In this document: positions 2,701-60,855 of the stretch, piece after piece
Numbering within the stretch: the stretch's first letter is position 1
Layout of the letters: each line of letters opens with the position of its first letter
Assembly (NCBI GenBank): GCA_951406725.2
Contig: OX597816.1
Coordinates: forward strand, 111,042,001 to 111,106,000
DNA: 64,000 nt
DNA from: Octopus vulgaris
Lineage: Eukaryota
Direction of reading: 5' to 3'
The notes under the pieces: generated by a model
What the model saw: the letters and a program-made list of their open reading frames with translations, nothing else
Database searches by the model: none
Told to the model about the DNA's origin: nothing
Made by a program: the position numbers and the translations under genes

Positions 2701-4323
2701 TATGATTCAGTTAAAGGCGATATTAATAATGAATTCTTAGAGTGTTTTGTTATAAACGAAATATAAGTAAACAGCCTTAAACATCGTAATTCATTGAAAG
2801 TTGGAGGAGACAAGTATCTTCTTTATCATTATGCAAACGCGACACTGCAATTGAATACCTACAGGATGAATATTATATTTAGGATTTTTCATTATGTGTA
2901 AATTAATTGCATTACCTTTCAGCGTAGGACAGCTAATTTCCATTTATTATAATATATTTACAACATGCATTTCCGCCTGTTTTTTCATGAAATATTAATC
3001 AGTAATGATCAAATTTGATTATACTAACATTATTACATTTAGTTTCAATTCCCTTTATATAAAGAATGAATAATATGTATGTATACATATATAAATGTAT
3101 TGTGAGTGTTCAAAAACTTTCACAAAGTACAATTTTGATAATACCCGTGATAACATGCCATACGAAGTTTATAATATTGTCTACACTAGTTATATCGTTC
3201 TAATCCAAAAAATTTCTAATCCCCTAAAGTAGTAACAACCTTTCTGATGGGTTTGCACACAGTTGTCATCCACTAAATGTCGCATACTCACTAGGATATT
3301 GTGACATTGTAAGGAGTTTAAATAGAATGATTTATAATTCATTATGTAAAACTGAAAATTTAAGCAAACGAATAAAATTTATACGAAATTAACCAGGAGT
3401 TCGTGCTTTGTGACGGAAATCAGCTACTTAATTAGACATAACAATTATTGTCGCAATATGAATACAAGCCCAACTTCAAAAGATCGTTTGCACTTCCAGA
3501 GACATTAACGTTAGGTAGAGGACGATGGTCAATCCATAATACTGAAACTTCCCTCTTTCTTGTGCTAATTATAAGAACACTACAAAAAAAAAAGAAAAAT
3601 ATTTTATTTCACTTTCCTGTGCTAATTGTAAGAACATTGCAAAAAAAAAAAAGAAACAAGGATTTTGTAAGTAGAAAAATTAAGACGGTAATTGAATATG
3701 CATTAGGGATGAATTTTGACAAGAACTTATCTTGAGAATAGCAGGTTATTAACTGTGGCAGTATGCTCTTTTGCAAAGGAAATTTTGCATTACTCTTATC
3801 TTTATAAGCTTTAACAAAGAGACTTGTACAAATGCTATTTGTTGAATAAGTATTTCATAACAAAAGACATCTATGGATCCATAACGAAAACAAACTAGAA
3901 ATCTGAGATGGTTGTAAATGCTTAGTGGAAACAGTATTTTGTTTTAACACAGAGTAAAGCACACCAATACACCACTGATGTCAGATGGAAATTTGAGGTG
4001 TCACAAAAAATTAAAAGAGTTAATGGGTTAATTTTTAATGAAATTCCAAAACACAACTTAATCATTTCTTAAATAAAACTGTAATATACCACTTTAAAAT
4101 CAGTATCATCGTAAACATTATTATTGTGATTAGTATGATTTGTATTATTGATGTTTGCTTTTTTTTATAAATATAGAGAAAACAACAAAAATAATAGATT
4201 TATTTTAAAATGAAATTTAAGAATATTACATATTATATACATATATATGTGTGTGTATGTAAGTGTACCTATGAATGTATGTGTGTATGTATGTATATTG
4301 TCAAAGGATAACGGACAATTATT

Positions 4324-16615: not shown

Positions 16616-17942
16616 AAAATAGTTAAAAGTGAAAAAAATACAGAAGACTTAAAGGTGAAAAAATATATATATTTGCGTCAATATGTATGAAGAATATTAA
16701 AAAAATTTTTTCCTTACAATGACATAGTTTAGAAGAAAGACCGGTTTCGCGTTTAGCTTTTCAAATTTCTTACGACGTTATGTTTATGTTGAATAGAGTT
16801 ATCGTTATGTTTATGTTTAAAAGAGTTCTAAATAAGGGGAGGTTATGAGTGATTTCTTCCGGTGTAAGGGAGATAATTGCTTAAATTTTTTTTCCTTTCC
16901 CTTGGTGTGAATTTCTCTGTATCAGTATGTTGGCATGGTTAAGTCTGGGCTTGTACTTTTCAATGAAGAATGTTTCCTTGTTTAGTCTAATTTATGTTGA
17001 TGATCCGATAGCACATTGGTAAAATGGAAAGATTAAAAATTGTGGTAGTAGTTGCTTTGCGCATTTCTCAATGTGCTCACTAAAAGGTATCATTCTGTAT
17101 TCTGGGAATGCAATCTTTTGTCGATGCAGTGTGCATCTACGTCTGAGTGATAGTCCCGTGGATCCCACGTAATCTTGGTGGCAGCCCGAGCATTTTATGA
17201 CATAAATAATGTTTTCAGAGGCACAAGTAAAGTTAGATTTGATCTTGAATTTCTGTCCCTCTTTAAAGAGGAATTCTGATCCTTCTAGCAGGTTTGGACA
17301 TGTTGCACAGTTCGATCTACCACATTTTTTTACTTTTGCATCCGTAATTTCAGAAGACAATTTTGCCTTTGTGAGAATCTTTCTAAGTGATTTAGGTTGT
17401 TTGTAGTTTTTAATGATTTGGTGTATGTTTAGAATTTCCTTTAATTTGGGGTCCTTATGAAGTATTGGTAAATTCTGGGTGATGATGGTGAAGGCTTTTT
17501 TGTTTCTGGGGTTGTATGTAGATATGTAAGGTAGTATTTTCGGGGAAGGTGTGTTGTTGTGTTGAACTGTTCTCAAAGTTTCTATGTTGATTTCTGTTGC
17601 ACGTCTGATCCCATCCTCTATGAGTTGAGCTGGGTATTGTATGTCAATTAGGGTGTTTTTGAGGTCTTGCAGTCTAAAGTTCCTGGTATTTTGTTCTGAC
17701 ACTATTGTGCATATCCTTCTTGCAAGGTTGAAGGGGATGTTTGTTTTAGTGTGTCTTGGGTGGCATGAATTAAAAAGAAGGTATTGTTTGGCGTCTGTGG
17801 CTTTGTAAAAGATGTCTGTTTCTATTTTAAGGTTAATTTTTGTGATTAGTATATCCAAGAACGGGAGCTCCTTTTGGTTGTATTCCATTGTGAACTGTAT
17901 ATTTGGGTTTATGCTGTTCAATAGGTTTTTAAACAATCGTCT
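16615..17942 (-). mobile_element. 5'-truncated Penelope-like retroelement (Neptune-type): RT thumb plus GIY-YIG endonuclease
   Basis: ORF 16992-17936: IQFTME..LPFLDILI..YLLFNSCHP, linker KCGRSNCATC, NIIYVIKC..YVGST..R..H. Frameshifted end RLNKETFFIEKYKPRLN. Confidence 0.92.
16733..16771 (-). ncRNA. Decayed minimal type I hammerhead in the PLE 3' region
   Basis: aagaaa-tttgaaaa-gc taaac gc-GAAACCGGTC-tttctt. Stem I is perfect, but the CUGANGA core is mutated. Confidence 0.55.
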
Positions 17943-18194
17943 AATATATATATATATATATACACATACACATTTACGTGTTTATGCGCGAATGTGCGTG
18001 CTCACCTACATTCACATAATTACTGAGACAAAAATACCAATTTAAATTTGTTTCATTTCTATCATTGTCGCAATGGGATTGGCAAACGCCCACATAAAAT
18101 ATTTAATAGCAGAGATTGTTTTGTAATAAAGGAAGCTGTAGAAACAGTTAGAGTGCTTTTCATTTTAGCCGAGTCTTTGATCACGTATAGCCAA

Positions 18195-31600: not shown

Positions 31601-33154
31601 CATATACTCCCGAAATCTCTATATATTCTCATTGAATTTCTTATAAATTACTTAATTTCCCAATATAACAGAAATAACTTTTGCCACATTAACTTAACAG
31701 AGAATATAACAAGCTGGTTGGTAGTCTGAAGGCAAATTTTCTCAAGCTATTGACATAAGTATGTTGTGTAAGTGAAGGAAATCAAAACAATTTAGCTGTC
31801 TTAGCATATAGACAGATTTCTTCAAGGATCTGATGTCCTTGGCAGCTGCTAACGTCTAGTTCTTAAATTAACTTCGTTGAGGCAAGTAAATACCAACTAT
31901 ATTAAAATCCAAATATATGCGATGATATATAGATATATAATGTGATTAAAATACAGCTGATCACCAAAGTCCCACTTCTTAAGCATCAAAACTGCATTTC
32001 GAGACATGTAAAACTACCTTACCTTGAAATAAGTGATTTTCAAAAGTTGTTAGTCATCACATAGTAGAGTTTAAATATTCCAACTCATTTCTTCTCCCCA
32101 CCTACACACACACACACACACACACACAACAGAAAATAAGAAGTAGCATCTTAGGGGTTTTGCCTGTTATATAAACTTTTAACAGGGACCGAAGTTTCTT
32201 GAACGGAAACAGAAAAAAATTAATATTTTTTCTGTTCAAGGCGTTTCATTTTATTGATATTGTGACAGTCATACTATTTCAATTAGTCGGCGTTTGGGTG
32301 TCAGTTATTTTAGAGGGTGCTACAGCATTAGGAGAAATACAGTACGTATATAAAATATTACAAGCGTTGCCTTAAAAAGTACGAAACTAGAATTGAAAAA
32401 TGCGCACGCTCAAAAGAATTACACAATGTCATAATAAACCTTAGAAAGCATGGCACTAGCATCGTTGCACTAAAATATTGGAATGTTTTATGTTGTACAT
32501 TTTGTGGCATCTTTTTTATCACAGGAAATTTGCTTAGTTCATTGAAATTAAGTTATATTAAAAAATCAAGTTAAATTATCGCATACTCAATTTTAACAAT
32601 ACAATTGCGTATAAATACTAATGTCATCTTAACGCAATAATTCAATATATGAATGATAACTTTATGAATTCACAAGTAATCAATCAAAAATAATTTAGTC
32701 ATTTGTTTAATTCGCATAACTATTCCATAAAATTGTGTATCATAATGCAAATTATCTTTGCTTATAATTTCCGTTTCGTGCTTTCGCTGTTATATAGATT
32801 CCACTTCATCAGAAATACAGTTTATTTTTTATTAATATGGTACTTTGCATGCAGTGTGAAATATGTTTTTTACATATTTTGGTATGAAGAGTATTATAAT
32901 GAATTTAATTATTTTTTTATATTAAGAACGCGGTTTAATAATCATCGTAACATCGTAATTCACACACGAGCCTCATTTCGTTTTATGATCCCACAGAATA
33001 CACAATATATAGTGATTCCAATATTTTTGCACAACAATGCTAGTCCCATACTATTTGAGGTTTATTATGACATGCTGTAACCCTTTTGAGCGTGCGCATT
33101 TTTCAATTCTATATATATGTATGTATGTATATATATGTATATATATATATATAT

Positions 33155-33333
33155 GGGGGGCAAAGGAAAGTGATTGCGTCTCTCATAGCCTCACTCTCCA
33201 GGTGTAATGATCGCTGCAGAACTTCTACTTGGCTGCGCCTAGTGGAAAGTTCTTGCTTATGGCCTCTCCTGCACTACTGTGTCCACAGCAGCACCTTCAC
33301 GCGGTACCCCCTGTTCTCACTGAGTCTGCTGTG
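33155..33333 (+). ncRNA. HDV-like (CPEB3-like) self-cleaving ribozyme
   Basis: P1 GGGGGG(33155-60)/CCCCCT(33307-12), P2 CACAGCAG(33284-91)/CTGCTGTG(33326-33), P3 ACC/GGT with L3 TTCACGC, J4/2 CTGA(33320-23). Confidence 0.75.
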
Positions 33334-33990
33334 TGGCGCGACCGGGTGCTTGGCGGTATAACCAGGTGGGCAGACTGGGCTCGTTAGCCTTGGTTGGCAG
33401 CCAGTCTAGGAGAAGGAAAACTCTGACTCCAAACCCTCACTCCGCTGCCTTGCGGATGCTCTTGGGAGAGGGAAAGGCTATGGGAGTAAACCCAGACAGA
33501 AAATCCGGAGTGGAGCTCCGAAGGCGGTAGGGTGTCGAATCTCGACCCTTTTCCGGCAACTCCTGCAGCCAACCAGACTCCAAACGTACTGCACTGCATT
33601 CCTTTGGATTATGTCTGGGGAGCCGAGAGGGAGATTCTGGTGTCTGGGCAGCCCAGTGTCTTCGTTCCTACCGCCCAGGCTTGCGCCATGGAGAAACTAC
33701 TCCATCGATGGAACAAGCTGAGATGGCAGTTACGAGTTTTAAGCCAGGGTGAATTGGCGTAATCCCAGGCGCTACGGGCCGTCTCTAACGGTGGGAGGGA
33801 TCATTGAAACAACTGCAGCAACACCCCACACGTACCCATCAATGTTCGTGTGCAGCAACTGTACCAAGGACTGCCACTCTAGAATTGGACTGTTCAGTCA
33901 CAGCAGACGCTGCACATCATCAAAGTAGGCCCCACCCTTGGCGCGACCCATTGTCTATCAAGACAGACGGGAGAGAAGGAGAAGGAAGAA

Positions 33991-56129: not shown

Positions 56130-56986
56130 TCATTATTATTATATGTTTGACTTTTGCTTTACATTTGTACAAGTTGGCTCCAAGTCTCATTCAGAGAACT
56201 CAAGAGACAACAAGCTGGAAGTTCATGTTGGTGTTATGTCTAGGGTGCCATATATTTGGTTTTGTACTTAGTGTTGCACTAGTGAATGTTTAAGAAACCA
56301 TAAGAAAATAATGTTTGTTTTAAAACTTGAGATTACATAGAAAGAATTTTGCATAGGATATGAGCAGTTCCTATGAGCACTATCTTTTGAATTTCTGCCA
56401 TTTTGGGGTTTCCTCGTATCTGAGTTAGGTAGCAATCAGCTCCTTTTGCTATCATTCCCAGGTCACCTATAACAACAGGTATTGTTTTAGTCTTCAGGTT
56501 CCACATTTTGCTGATTTCTATTTCAAGATCTTTATATTTGTTCAGTTTTTGGTAGGTCTTAACAGATACGTTTATATTGGTTGGGACAGTCATATCAATG
56601 AGGAGGCATGATTTTTGTCTGAAGTCTTTCAATATGGTGTCTGGTTTATTCGCATTTATCTTTCTGTCAGTTTGAATGGTGAAGTTCCAGAGGAGTGAAA
56701 AGTGATCATTTTCAAGTACTGGAGGTGGTTTGTGTTCCCACCAGTTTTTATCATGGGGCAAGTCAAAGCTTTTGCAAATTACCCAGTGAATATATTGTGC
56801 AGTTCTATCATGCCTGTTGAGATATTCTGTAGGCACAAGAAGACTGCACTTGGAGACAACATGATCAATGGTTTCATTTTGTTGTTGACGTACATGATAT
56901 GTTGGGCTACTGCCGTTCTTTAATATGTTGGCCTAGTAGTTCCTTGTAGGTAGACATTGATCTAGAGCTGCTATGATAAACTCTTC
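56130..56986 (-). mobile_element. 5'-truncated R4/Dong element, subfamily 2 (RLE endonuclease end plus 3' UTR)
   Basis: ETIDHVVSKC..YLNRHD..LLWNFTIQTD..KPD..LIDMTVP..KLNKYKDL. Flanked by (TAA)n. Confidence 0.9.
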
Positions 56987-57069
<83 letters not shown>

Positions 57070-57169
57070 ATTATTATTGTTATTGTTATTATTATTATTG
57101 TTATTATTATTGTTATTATTATTATTGTTATTATTATTATTATTATTGTTATTATTATTATTATTATTC

Positions 57170-60100
57170 AGTAGTTTTATTTTTATAGCGTGCTTTCACT
57201 TCACTACCGAGCGCAGCTCTGTGTGCCTTGGGTATGTGCTGTGATTTGTTGTGATGATCTGATGGTTATTGTATGGAAAGTGTTCTGCGTAGGATGTGTG
57301 CAGTGCCTAGTAGTGCAATTTTCTGTATGTTATATGTGTTTGTAAGTCCTGGTGTTTTTGTTATGTATTTGTCTGAATATTTTTTTATCATGCCTAATGC
57401 ACCTTCTATGATAGGAATTGTTTCTGTTTTCAGGTTCCACATTCTAGTTACCTCTATTTCCAGGTCTTTGTATTTTGAGAGTTTCTCCATTTCTTTTAGA
57501 GACACGTTGTCATCAGCCGGTATTGATACATCAATTAGAAAGCATTTTTTTCTTCATGATCTCTGACAACTATATCTGGTCTGTTGGCCTTAATTTCTCT
57601 ATCTGTGTGTATCGGCATATCCCAGAGTATGGTTGCTTTCTCGTTTTCTGTGACCTTTTCTGGTGTGTGCCTATACCATCGTTTTTCTGTTGTTATTCCA
57701 TAATGTTGGCATAGCTTCCAGTGTATGTAGGTTCCAACTCTGTCATGTCTGTGAATATATTCCTTCTTAGTCAGGACTGGGCAGCCAGAGATAATATGAT
57801 TTATTGTTTCTTGTCCATCTCCACATATTCTGCAGTTACTTTTTATATTTCTTTTCATTACAAGTTTTTGGTAATTTTGGTAATCCCTCTGTTTCTACTT
57901 TGAGTCCTGAGCTTCTCAATCATTGCTGGGATTTTTCTTTGTCTATTTCTTTTGCGTTTAGTTTAGTCCTGTATTTACAATGAAGGGGCTTTTCTTGCCA
58001 TCGTTTTATCATGGTTCTTTGATGTTGTAGTTTTAGTTTGGATTTCATTTGTTTTATAGCTTTTGTTGTTTCTTCATCTTTTTCTTCTTCTTCATATTTC
58101 TTAGGTGGTATGATTTCTTGTTTGTATTCGTCAGCTTCCTTAAATACTGAAAACAGTTTTTTGTTTTGCTCGTGTTTTGCCGCTATTTTATAGTAGTTTT
58201 CTAGCTCTATAAGGCCTCTTCCACCTTCTATACGTTGTATATATAGTCTTTCTATGTCAGATTTTGGGTGATGCATCCTAGATCCTGTCATTATTTTTCT
58301 TGTTTTCCTATCTATTTTGGTCAGTTCATTTAGTGTCCAGTTAAGGATATTGTAGCTGTAACATATAACTGATACAGCTAAAGTGTTAATACCTATTATC
58401 TTGTTTTTAGCATTGAGCTCTGTTTTTAGTATTGATCTAACTCGTCTATAATATTCTTTTTTTACTTTCTCTTTCATTTGTGTGCGTTGTGTCTTATCTA
58501 GTTCATGGATTCCTAAGTATTTGTAAGTTTGGCTTTGGTCTAATTCTTTTATTTCATTGGATTTATCTAGTGTGATGTTGCTACTCTTAACTAGTTTTCC
58601 TCTTTTCAGGGTTACTTTGGCGCATTTATCTAATCCAAATTTCATATCTATTCCTTTGGTAAGTCCATGAACTGTCTTTAATAGTGTTTCCAGCTGTTTG
58701 TCATTTGTAGCGTATAGTTTTAGGTCATCCATATATAAAAGGTGGCTGATCGTTTTGCCGTAACATTTATATCCGCATCCAGTACTATTTAGCATATCAG
58801 ATAGAGGTGACAGTGCCAAGCAGAAAAGGAGGGGAGAGATCGTGTCTCCCTGGAATATTCCTCTTCTAATGGGGATGGCTTTGGTTTTCATGAGTCCCTC
58901 TTTTGTTTGGAGCTGTAGCACTGTTTGCCATTTATTCATAGAGTGTCCAATGAATTTTATAATTGTTGGTGCAACTTTGTTAATGGCTAGTGTTTCGAGT
59001 ATCCATGTGTGGGGGATGCTATCAAACGCCTTTTTGTAGTCGATCCAGGCCATACTGAGGCCTTTCTTCTTTCTGTGGCTGTCTTCAGTAATGGCTTTAT
59101 TAATCATTAGTTGATCTTTACAGCCATATGAACCTTTGCGGCATCCTTTCTGCTCTTCTGGAAACGCGTTGTTTTCGTCCAGGTGCTAGTTCAACCTTTG
59201 CGATATCACTGCAGTAAATGCCTTGTACATTGTAGGGAGACAGGTTATTGGTCTGTAGTTTTCTGGTTTTGCTGTCTCATTTGATTTGGGAATTAAGATG
59301 GTTTTCCCCTTCGTGAGCCATTCTGGCATTGTCTCTTGCTCTGTCAGTATGTTGTTAAAGTTTTCAGCCAGCTTTTTGTGCATTCCTGTTAGATATTTCA
59401 ACCAGAAGTTGGGGATCTTGTCATGCCCAGGTGCCTTCCAGTTGCTTAGTCTTTGCAGTGCCTGGGTGACCTCTTCAGTTGTTATGGGGGTTCAAAGTTG
59501 TTCAGATGCCGAGTTTGTTATTTTGATACTCCTTTTTTTTTTTGTTGTTCGTTCGTCGACCATATTTCTCTCCAGAATTCTTCCACTTCTTCTGCCGTTG
59601 GTGCTGCAGTGATTTCTATTTTATTTTTGACAAGTTCTTGGTAGAACTTTTTGGGGTTGGAGTTGAGCTTTTTGTTTTGTTCAAAGAAGCGCTGGCGTTT
59701 CTCGTACCGGCGGATCCTTTGTGTTTTGGCAAGGATATCTTGCTTTAGTTTTTCTTTTATCTCGGGTGAATCTTTTTCTGTGATGTTGTATTTGCGGAGT
59801 ATTTTTTGTTTTCTTTTTGTTGCTCAGTAGCGTTGATTGTCTACTGATTTCATTAAGAATCGACAGATCTTTTCTCATTTTGTTTTGGATGTTATTTATC
59901 CACATGCTTTGTTTGGGTGGTGGTACTCCTGTTTGGATGGGTTTGAGTGAGTATCCATCTTCTGTTGTGGCTGCAGTGGCTGCTGCGTATCCTAAGTCAT
60001 TTAGCTCAGTGATATCGCTTTTTGTTTCAGTGGCTATTAGTTCCGTGACAGGTAGGTTTATGCTGTTTATAATTGATGTTGTTGTTTCGTCTATTTTGAT

Positions 60101-60466
60101 TTTTGGGAGGAATGGTCGGTGCTCCATCTTGAGATCTGTGTTTTTCAGTTCTTTGATTATTCTACTTTTTATAGTATCATAATCATTAGGCTTCCCTTCG
60201 TTGTTTTCAGGTTTTACATTTGTGTCACTTTTTTTCACGTTCGTATATTTGTTTGTCGTGTTTTTGCTTGCTGTTTGTCGTGTATTATTATGCATCCTTA
60301 CGGTCTGGGTTTGTCGTTTTTTGTTTACATCGTGTTTGTTGGGAATGTTACGTTTGTCTTCGTGTTTTACTGTTCCAGTGTTTATATTATTGGGCATTGT
60401 TGTGTGGCTTCTATCTACATCTTCCTGATGTATTTTTTCTTTTAGATGTTCTATTTCTATTGCTGA

Positions 60467-60467
<1 letters not shown>
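57170..60467 (-). mobile_element. Near full-length R4/Dong non-LTR retrotransposon (RT plus CCHC plus RLE), frameshifted
   Basis: ENYRPITCL, WIDYKKAFDS, GIFQGD, HLLYMDDLKL, YKYLG, GGRGL, CRICG..ETINHIISGC, RHD, RPD, EKLSKY. Confidence 0.95.
57920..59107 (-). pseudogene. Reverse transcriptase ORF fragment of the R4/Dong element
   Basis: 395-aa open frame with the YMDD catalytic motif, bounded by in-frame stops. Confidence 0.92.
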
Positions 60468-60554
<87 letters not shown>

Positions 60555-60855
60555 GAAGGAGAGAGCAGTGCATGCTATCAAGGTGACACTGGAGTAAAAT
60601 ATACGAACCCCAGTATACCTATCATGACTACCCGTCTGAGAAGAGTACACTAGGCACATGCATCACAACCATATAGGCGTGACATGGTAATCTCCTATCA
60701 AGATAAACAGCACATGACCTTGCAGGTGGGGCCAAGTTAGAATTTTCTTCTAGTCGAGTAACCCATCTGTTATACCAAGACAAAACAATGTACATGATAA
60801 CATTTCCAATCAGTTTAGATCAGAAGCCACGAGAGCCACTGCCTTGTACTGCATC
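60555..60855 (-). mobile_element. Block A': deleted copy of block A upstream of the Dong ORF
   Basis: Colinear with 55393-55605 and 55855-55942. Confidence 0.8.

What the first reader, a model, noticed from the sequence alone, without database searches (positions are those of the whole stretch)
33155..33333. CPEB3-like HDV ribozyme with almost no P4 at the 5' end of an RTE element
Seen: the nested double pseudoknot starts at the first non-(TA) base. It has P1 G6/C5U with a G-U pair at the predicted cut site, an 8-bp P2, P3 ACC/GGT, L3 UUCACGC, a single C-G P1.1 and J4/2 C-U-G-A. Known: RTE/R2/R4 elements use 5' HDV-like ribozymes. The human CPEB3 ribozyme, recalled from memory, reads GGGGGCCACAGCAG..UUCACG..CCCCUGU..CUGCUG, and these same primary blocks occur here in order. 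Unusual: a J1/2 insert of about 123 nt and a P4 reduced to about 5 nt. Inference: a possibly active invertebrate relative relevant to a retrotransposon origin of the CPEB3 ribozyme.
Basis: partly seen in the sequence, partly recalled or inferred. Interest (0 to 1): 0.75.

Follow-up and report, generated by a model that had tools for sequence, protein, structure and literature searches.

The report
Ribozyme head of an RTE retrotransposon
This is the front end of a shortened copy of a young jumping gene, and it has every helix of a hepatitis-delta-type RNA fold that likely cuts the element's RNA free; that arrangement is already known, and the likeness to the mammalian CPEB3 ribozyme is no closer than in sister elements.

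Summary
Observation confirmed. 33155-33333 is the exact 5' end of an 838-nt internally deleted copy of a young 4.0-kb single-ORF endonuclease/RT (RTE-type) element with at least 51 copies in this genome. All HDV-like parts are present. My descriptor finds 1 site on both window strands, 0 in 10,000 shuffles and 0 with C-to-A/G/U controls. A diverged relative (L099) keeps the same P4-less core with one compensatory P2 pair, and other RTE heads vary P1 and P3 on both sides. Cleavage is untested. Long J1/2 and no P4 are both published (active silkmoth R2; an abalone ribozyme with 5 nt in place of P4). The CPEB3 inference is not supported for this element: in structural register it matches 13 of 25 core positions of the Rfam CPEB3 consensus, like other RTE heads (10-14, one 19). 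Two other old repeat families in this genome match more closely (17-24 of 25, one copy over the Rfam cut-off); one leads into the endonuclease of a Vingi-like LINE. The scan noted P4-less RTE heads and the Vingi-CPEB3 link before, on other DNA. Verdict: new member of a known kind.

The parts
33110..33154 (.). (TA)n-rich target microsatellite upstream of the element
   Evidence: most sister copies also start in (TA)n
33155..33161 (+). P1 5' strand; G33155 is the first base of the element and the predicted base 3' of the cut
   Evidence: 30 of 30 fetched loci begin at element position 1-3; G at position 1 in 24 of 30
33162..33283 (+). J1/2, 122 nt, predicted hairpins; holds C/U-rich tracts that can form a rival P1
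   Evidence: L099 has 277 nt here, one extra hairpin inserted right after P1
33284..33292 (+). P2 5' strand
33293..33305 (+). P3 (33293-95 with 33303-05) and L3 (33296-33302); C33298 forms P1.1
33306..33314 (+). P1 3' strand (33306-12) and G33313-U33314 (P1.1 side)
33315..33319 (+). 5-nt linker in place of P4
   Evidence: invariant in 30 of 30 copies; 5 nt also in L099
33320..33323 (+). J4/2, C-U-G-A; C33320 is the predicted catalytic cytosine
   Evidence: invariant in 30 of 30; same four letters in RTE head L178
33324..33333 (+). P2 3' strand with a 1-nt bulge (33325); may extend to 33338
33367..33438 (+). mid-UTR block shared with other retroelements
   Evidence: coral and other metatranscriptome contigs; a second family in G000
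33686..33711 (+). internal stem-loop resembling the 3' terminal one; many sister copies end here
   Evidence: 17 of 30 loci end at element positions 553-562; the likeness is my reading of the sequence
33808..33809 (+). junction of the internal deletion (about 3.2 kb, removing nearly all of the ORF)
   Evidence: window matches full-length L039 at 1-655 and 3830-4005
33809..33928 (+). remnant of the ORF end with a zinc-finger-like motif and stop codon
   Evidence: same residues end the ORF of L054
33948..33992 (+). 3' stem-loop (33948-70) and purine microsatellite tail (33971-92), followed by (TA)n

Best explanation
The stretch is the first 179 bases of an internally deleted copy of a young RTE-type retrotransposon, and it carries all helices and the conserved bases of an HDV-like fold that likely cuts the RNA just 5' of G33155. 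Shown: element boundaries, family, pairing potential, compensatory change in relatives. Inferred from HDV-like ribozyme biology: the element is read through from flanking host DNA; P1, P1.1, P2 and P3 form the nested double pseudoknot without P4; C33320 with Mg2+ catalyses cleavage; the freed RNA has a fixed 5' end and is copied by the family's endonuclease/RT into (TA)n sites, so copies start at G1. This window copy cannot encode the protein and is most likely a passenger; I put its own cleavage activity at about 0.55.
For: Sharp shared 5' boundary at P1's first base in 30 of 30 fetched loci, with unrelated flanks. Of 51 copies seen begin within 3 nt of G1. Full-length copies encode endonuclease plus RT. 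Descriptor on 80,185 nt upstream of 80 metagenome RTE-like loci: 6 sense hits with C, 0 with A, 0 with G, 1 with U, 0 antisense. L099 (66% identical protein) differs at 8 of 50 core positions and breaks no pair: one compensatory P2 pair (C-G to U-A), one C-G to U.G, the rest in loops, linker, bulge or J4/2; it also closes the P1 top mismatch. Five other heads show 3-5 both-sided changes in the 10 P1+P3 pairs, none broken. L099's extra J1/2 is inserted behind an unchanged G-run. Contigs from runs of three coded organisms list only one other letter in the core, U33325C. Published rules allow P1 top mismatches, P2 mismatches and no P4 (PMC3774820).
Against: No cleavage data. All runs laid were contigs, which cannot show RNA ends. 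Copies within the genome give no covariation: core 1.6% versus J1/2 1.4% from the majority, and only 12 of 30 pass the descriptor. The 30 loci were picked by likeness to the 5' end, which favours 5'-complete copies. The best nested fold pairs the G-run inside J1/2 instead of with P1; my rough sum favours the native fold by 6-10 kcal/mol but ignores pseudoknot penalties. 74 of 80 metagenome loci gave no strict hit, although 57 of 80 had 750 nt or more upstream. Only one close P4-less relative supports the exact register. A G-run start could also mark a promoter-defined start.
Confidence: 0.8

Rival explanations
1. The fold is an inherited but weak or dead ribozyme. It serves mainly as a stable 5' structure (exonuclease shield or translation signal), and the 5' end is set by an internal promoter.
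For: Rival P1 pairing in the nested minimum-energy fold; P1 top mismatch and P2 bulge; some R2 ribozymes that fold on paper did not cleave (PMC3774820); shielding and IRES roles are described for such folds (PMC13708176; PMC6765202).
Against: Catalytic C, J4/2 A, L3 and P1.1 are kept in all diverged heads, and C-substituted controls are nearly empty, which points to selection on catalysis.
Confidence: 0.13
2. This RTE head is a direct evolutionary relative of the mammalian CPEB3 ribozyme.
For: Against the Rfam consensus printed, it shares a 9-nt block before P3, 6 of 7 L3 bases, 5 of 7 P1 3' bases, the G.U at the cut and a single-pair P1.1.
Against: 13 of 25 core positions in register, against 10-14 for ten other RTE heads and 19 for L149. 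The 9-nt block is one base out of register and is changed in L099. No RF00622 hit here, while two other families in the genome hit it. The 25 positions leave out outer P2 and P1, where the likeness is best.
Confidence: 0.07
3. Chance resemblance in a GC-rich structured UTR.
For: No Rfam match; folding z-score -1.5; the descriptor was written after seeing the motif.
Against: 0 of 10,000 shuffles; strand-specific and C-specific hits with compensatory changes in independent loci; P1 begins at the element's first base.
Confidence: 0.02

Closest known systems
HDV-like ribozymes at the 5' ends of RTE, R2, R4/Dong, Ingi/L1Tc, Baggins/LOA retrotransposons (Ruminski 2011 not held, known through PMC6765202, PMC5786205 and PMC3774820 passages)
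   Same: Position at the exact 5' end of an RTE-type LINE; nested double pseudoknot; 6-bp P1 with top mismatch; catalytic C in J4/2.
   Different: This family is not shown to cleave; I found no description of it in the papers searched.
Silkmoth R2 ribozyme (B. mori, S. cynthia) and the abalone HDV-like ribozyme cited in PMC3774820
   Same: Long J1/2 and no P4 stem; abalone has 5 nt in place of P4, as here. The silkmoth form cleaves, and C-to-U abolishes it.
   Different: R2 is rDNA-specific and borrows P1's 5' strand from 28S rRNA; J1/2 is 216-498 nt against 122 nt. I could not see the abalone sequence (Webb and Luptak 2011 not held).
Minimal HDV-like and theta ribozymes (bioRxiv 10.1101/2023.06.13.544163)
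   Same: No P4 domain; catalytic C first in J4/2.
   Different: Those are short, phage-borne and tRNA-linked; this one has a long J1/2 and heads a LINE.
Mammalian CPEB3 ribozyme (Rfam RF00622)
   Same: G-run P1 with G.U at the cut, similar L3, single-pair P1.1, a shared block before P3.
   Different: P3 and J4/2 sequences differ, no P4, J1/2 122 nt against 1 nt; no Rfam hit; a multicopy transposon end, not a single conserved intronic site.
Bipartite non-autonomous RTE derivatives (Bov-A, RTESINE, MAR4_MD; PMC5786205)
   Same: 5' part joined to the 3' end by internal deletion, keeping the original 5' end.
   Different: This junction was seen once among 30 loci (L006, L024 and L086 have other junctions), so it is not shown to be an amplified family.

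Membership tests
HDV-like ribozyme | P1 of 6-7 bp starting with G at the cut site (G-C or G.U) | tested here: met
   6 bp, G.U first pair; both-sided changes in relatives
HDV-like ribozyme | P2 of 5 bp or more stacking on a 3-bp P3 | tested here: met
   8+1 bp with 1-nt bulge; compensatory pair in L099
HDV-like ribozyme | L3 with conserved U, C and G, and P1.1 | tested here: met
   C33298-G33313 in 30 of 30; U33296 and G33301 in 29 of 30
HDV-like ribozyme | J4/2 with catalytic C and conserved A | tested here: met
   30 of 30; C-specific descriptor hits
HDV-like ribozyme | Mg2+-dependent self-cleavage lost on C-to-U | not testable with these tools
   bench assay needed; only contigs were available
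Minimal (P4-less) HDV-like ribozyme | No P4 helix | tested here: met
   5 nt between P1.1 and J4/2
CPEB3 ribozyme family (RF00622) | Match to the Rfam model at its gathering score | tested here: not met
   no hit at E up to 10; the model cannot take a 122-nt J1/2, so this alone is weak
CPEB3 ribozyme family (RF00622) | Core sequence in register closer than generic LINE heads | tested here: not met
   13 of 25 against 10-14 (one 19) for 11 other RTE heads
RTE-clade LINE | Single ORF with APE endonuclease and RT, short 3' UTR, microsatellite tail | tested here: met
   Pfam PF03372 and PF00078 in L053; 4.0-kb copies; the fetched copies carry stops or frameshifts
RTE-clade LINE | RT phylogeny groups with named RTE elements | not tested
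Bipartite non-autonomous LINE family | The same deletion junction amplified in many copies | tested here: not met
   junction 655/3830 in 1 of 30 loci
Vingi clade (carrier of side family A only) | About 3-kb single ORF, endonuclease plus RT, no RNase H, very short 5' UTR | tested here: inconclusive
   two-step chain: L182 fragment to P0122 (E 4e-4), then to about 990-aa proteins on about 3.2-kb contigs without PF00075; the name Vingi is recalled and from earlier notes, not from a labelled hit

The most novel reading that the evidence does not exclude
The mammalian CPEB3 ribozyme is the adopted 5' end of a Vingi-like LINE, and this genome keeps decayed near-copies of that head (two families, 25 loci read here). 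The window's RTE head would be a P4-less, J1/2-expanded cousin in the same pool of swappable LINE 5' modules, not the donor.
Probability: 0.45. Interest if true: 0.7.

Novelty: new member of a known kind. Interest (0 to 1): 0.3.

Why it matters
For the window itself, little: it adds one more RTE family with a predicted 5' HDV-like ribozyme, a natural P4-less, long-J1/2 example that is easy to assay. The side result matters more: near-CPEB3 heads on an endonuclease-type LINE in an invertebrate genome make the origin of the CPEB3 ribozyme testable. The 17 of 30 copies ending near position 558 may show how the RTE protein picks its RNA 3' end.

Tried and rejected
Rfam scans of the region and of seven RTE loci found no ribozyme family. 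The metagenome pattern scan with the mid-UTR motif gave 0; viral contigs gave no relative. One search used a mistyped pattern and the wrong end of L055; neither is evidence. A second G000 family sharing the mid-UTR motif (L059-L078) shares nothing upstream, so it gave no covariation. MAFFT did not align the cores structurally, so pairs were tabulated by script and no covariance model was built. Coral and other small-share runs covered only downstream UTR blocks. An alternative 3-bp hairpin over 33316-33324 as 'P4' leaves no J4/2 and was rejected; it may compete in folding. The relaxed core search (14 loci) had no control. No host gene was recognised in the window by reading its ORFs (not scanned against Pfam). 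Direct searches with the L034 fragment found nothing, nor did Pfam with the L182 fragment. Ruminski 2011, Webb 2009 and Webb and Luptak 2011 are not held; their supplements may already list this family.

Full report
Observation. P1 pairs 33155-60 with 33307-12, with G.U at the predicted cut and a C/A mismatch on top. P2 is 8 bp plus one pair across a 1-nt bulge. P3, a 7-nt L3, one P1.1 pair, a 5-nt linker in place of P4 and J4/2 C-U-G-A follow in the HDV order. Rfam finds no ribozyme here. A descriptor I wrote finds this site alone on both window strands and nothing when the catalytic C is replaced. It finds 0 hits in 10,000 shuffles of the first 300 nt and 0 in 2,000 shuffles of 830 nt. Since I wrote it knowing the motif, the independent test is in other genomes (below).

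The element. A search of the own genome scored 40 of 71 candidates, at 93-100% identity; 11 further copies came from a mid-UTR pattern. Five of 16 copies fetched at length are 4.0 kb and encode an endonuclease and RT in one ORF, broken by stops or frameshifts. The window copy joins the first 655 nt to the last 176 nt, so it is non-autonomous; that junction occurs in 1 of 30 loci. The label RTE rests on this architecture and on recalled knowledge; I built no tree. Earlier notes call the genome octopus-like; I did not test that. All 30 loci start at element position 1-3, mostly in (TA)n, though they were chosen by likeness to the 5' end. Copies are about 1.5% from the majority in core and J1/2 alike, and 12 of 30 pass the descriptor: neutral decay, no covariation signal within the genome.

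Relatives. Eighty metagenome loci encoding related endonucleases were fetched. In 80,185 nt upstream of them the descriptor gave 6 sense hits with C, 1 with U, none with A or G, and none antisense; 74 loci gave no strict hit. A relaxed, uncontrolled core search found 14 loci, 2 of them P4-less (L099, L161). L099, the closest, is homologous along the UTR (72% over positions 8-283). It differs at 8 of 50 core positions without breaking a pair, with one compensatory P2 change, and has a full 7-bp P1. Its J1/2 is longer by one hairpin inserted behind the G-run. Five other heads change 3-5 of 10 P1+P3 pairs on both sides and break none. Contigs from four runs of three coded organisms list only U33325C in the core.

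Mechanism. Most likely the family is transcribed from flanking DNA and the ribozyme cuts 5' of G1, giving a fixed 5' end that is then reverse transcribed into (TA)n sites. This follows the model for HDV-like heads of RTE and other LINEs (passages of PMC6765202; PMC5786205). Cleavage is not shown here. A rival pairing of the G-run inside J1/2 wins in nested folding and could slow it; a rough sum favours the native fold.

Known precedent. PMC3774820 (parts 2-4 of 7 read) describes an active silkmoth R2 ribozyme with long J1/2 and no P4, cites an abalone ribozyme with 5 nt in place of P4, and notes P1 top mismatches in about a quarter and P2 mismatches in about a third of R2 ribozymes. Theta ribozymes also lack P4 (parts 1-2 of 5 read). 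Bipartite RTE derivatives are known. The octopus LINE paper PMC9115989 has no occurrence of 'ribozyme' (passages). Ten literature searches listed no paper on this family's ribozyme or on a Vingi origin of CPEB3, but three key Luptak-lab papers are not held and subscription journals are not covered.

CPEB3. Against the Rfam consensus printed, the window shares real blocks, but over 25 positions around the active site it scores 13, against 10-14 for ten other RTE heads and 19 for one. That score omits P1 and outer P2. An RF00622 search of the genome gave 27 matches from 59 scored candidates, one above the cut-off. Most of those read fall into two old families that have a short J1/2, a P4 and the CPEB3-type P3, L3 and J4/2; they score 17-24 of 25, with upward bias from how they were picked. 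Family A continues into an endonuclease start whose relatives are about 990-aa endonuclease/RT proteins without RNase H on about 3.2-kb contigs, which fits Vingi (name recalled, and suggested by earlier scan notes). PMC8233481 (term look-ups only) does not use the words origin or retrotransposon. So a LINE origin of CPEB3 is plausible, but this RTE head is not the lead candidate.

Verdict. A real, likely functional HDV-like ribozyme at the 5' end of an RTE family: a new member of a known kind, interest 0.3. The CPEB3-like families elsewhere in the genome are the lead worth following.

Noticed in passing
L032-L035, L181, L183, L185, L186, L191-L193, L195, L197, L200 (G000): Old dispersed family A, 14 loci: compact HDV-like head with P4; copies match 17-24 of 25 CPEB3 core positions (picked by the CPEB3 model and best register, so biased upward). 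About 170 nt downstream, L182 reads as the start of an APE endonuclease of a Vingi-like LINE.
   Followed up: partly
L031, L036-L038, L184, L187-L190, L194, L199 (G000): Old family B, 11 loci: short elements with a CPEB3-like head; L031 passes the Rfam RF00622 cut-off (39.1 against 35 bits). L031 and L037 run into TAA repeats. Carrier not identified.
   Followed up: partly
window 33686-33716; L003, L004, L016, L025, L030 and others: 17 of 30 copies end at element positions 553-562 with no RTE 3' tail; several have target duplications (20 nt in L004, 12 in L025, 11 in L030) and L005 has a poly(A) run. Likely priming at an internal look-alike of the 3' stem-loop; a second cleavage site is not excluded.
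   Followed up: partly
window 33351-33357; L079, L080, L082-L085, L088: 7 of 10 5'-truncated copies fetched begin at element positions 197-203, just past the ribozyme: perhaps RT stalling or TA microhomology.
   Followed up: no
L020; L006, L017, L021: Short tandem repeats of the first 17-20 bases (L020) or extra G's before G1, as expected from template jumps at a free RNA 5' end (inference).
   Followed up: no
L127:11-90, L176:43-49: In these RTE heads the best P1 5' strand is a GT-repeat-like tract, in L127 with many equal registers; the target microsatellite may supply P1, as 28S rRNA does for R2.
   Followed up: no
L149:590-660: An RTE-like metagenome locus whose core has the CPEB3-type P3 and J4/2 (19 of 25); no good P1 partner found.
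   Followed up: no
window 56336-60574 (-), 16995-17981 (-): ORF fragments of other retroelements: an RT with a C-terminal nuclease-like part, and a GIY-YIG/Penelope-like piece (labels recalled, not scanned).
   Followed up: no
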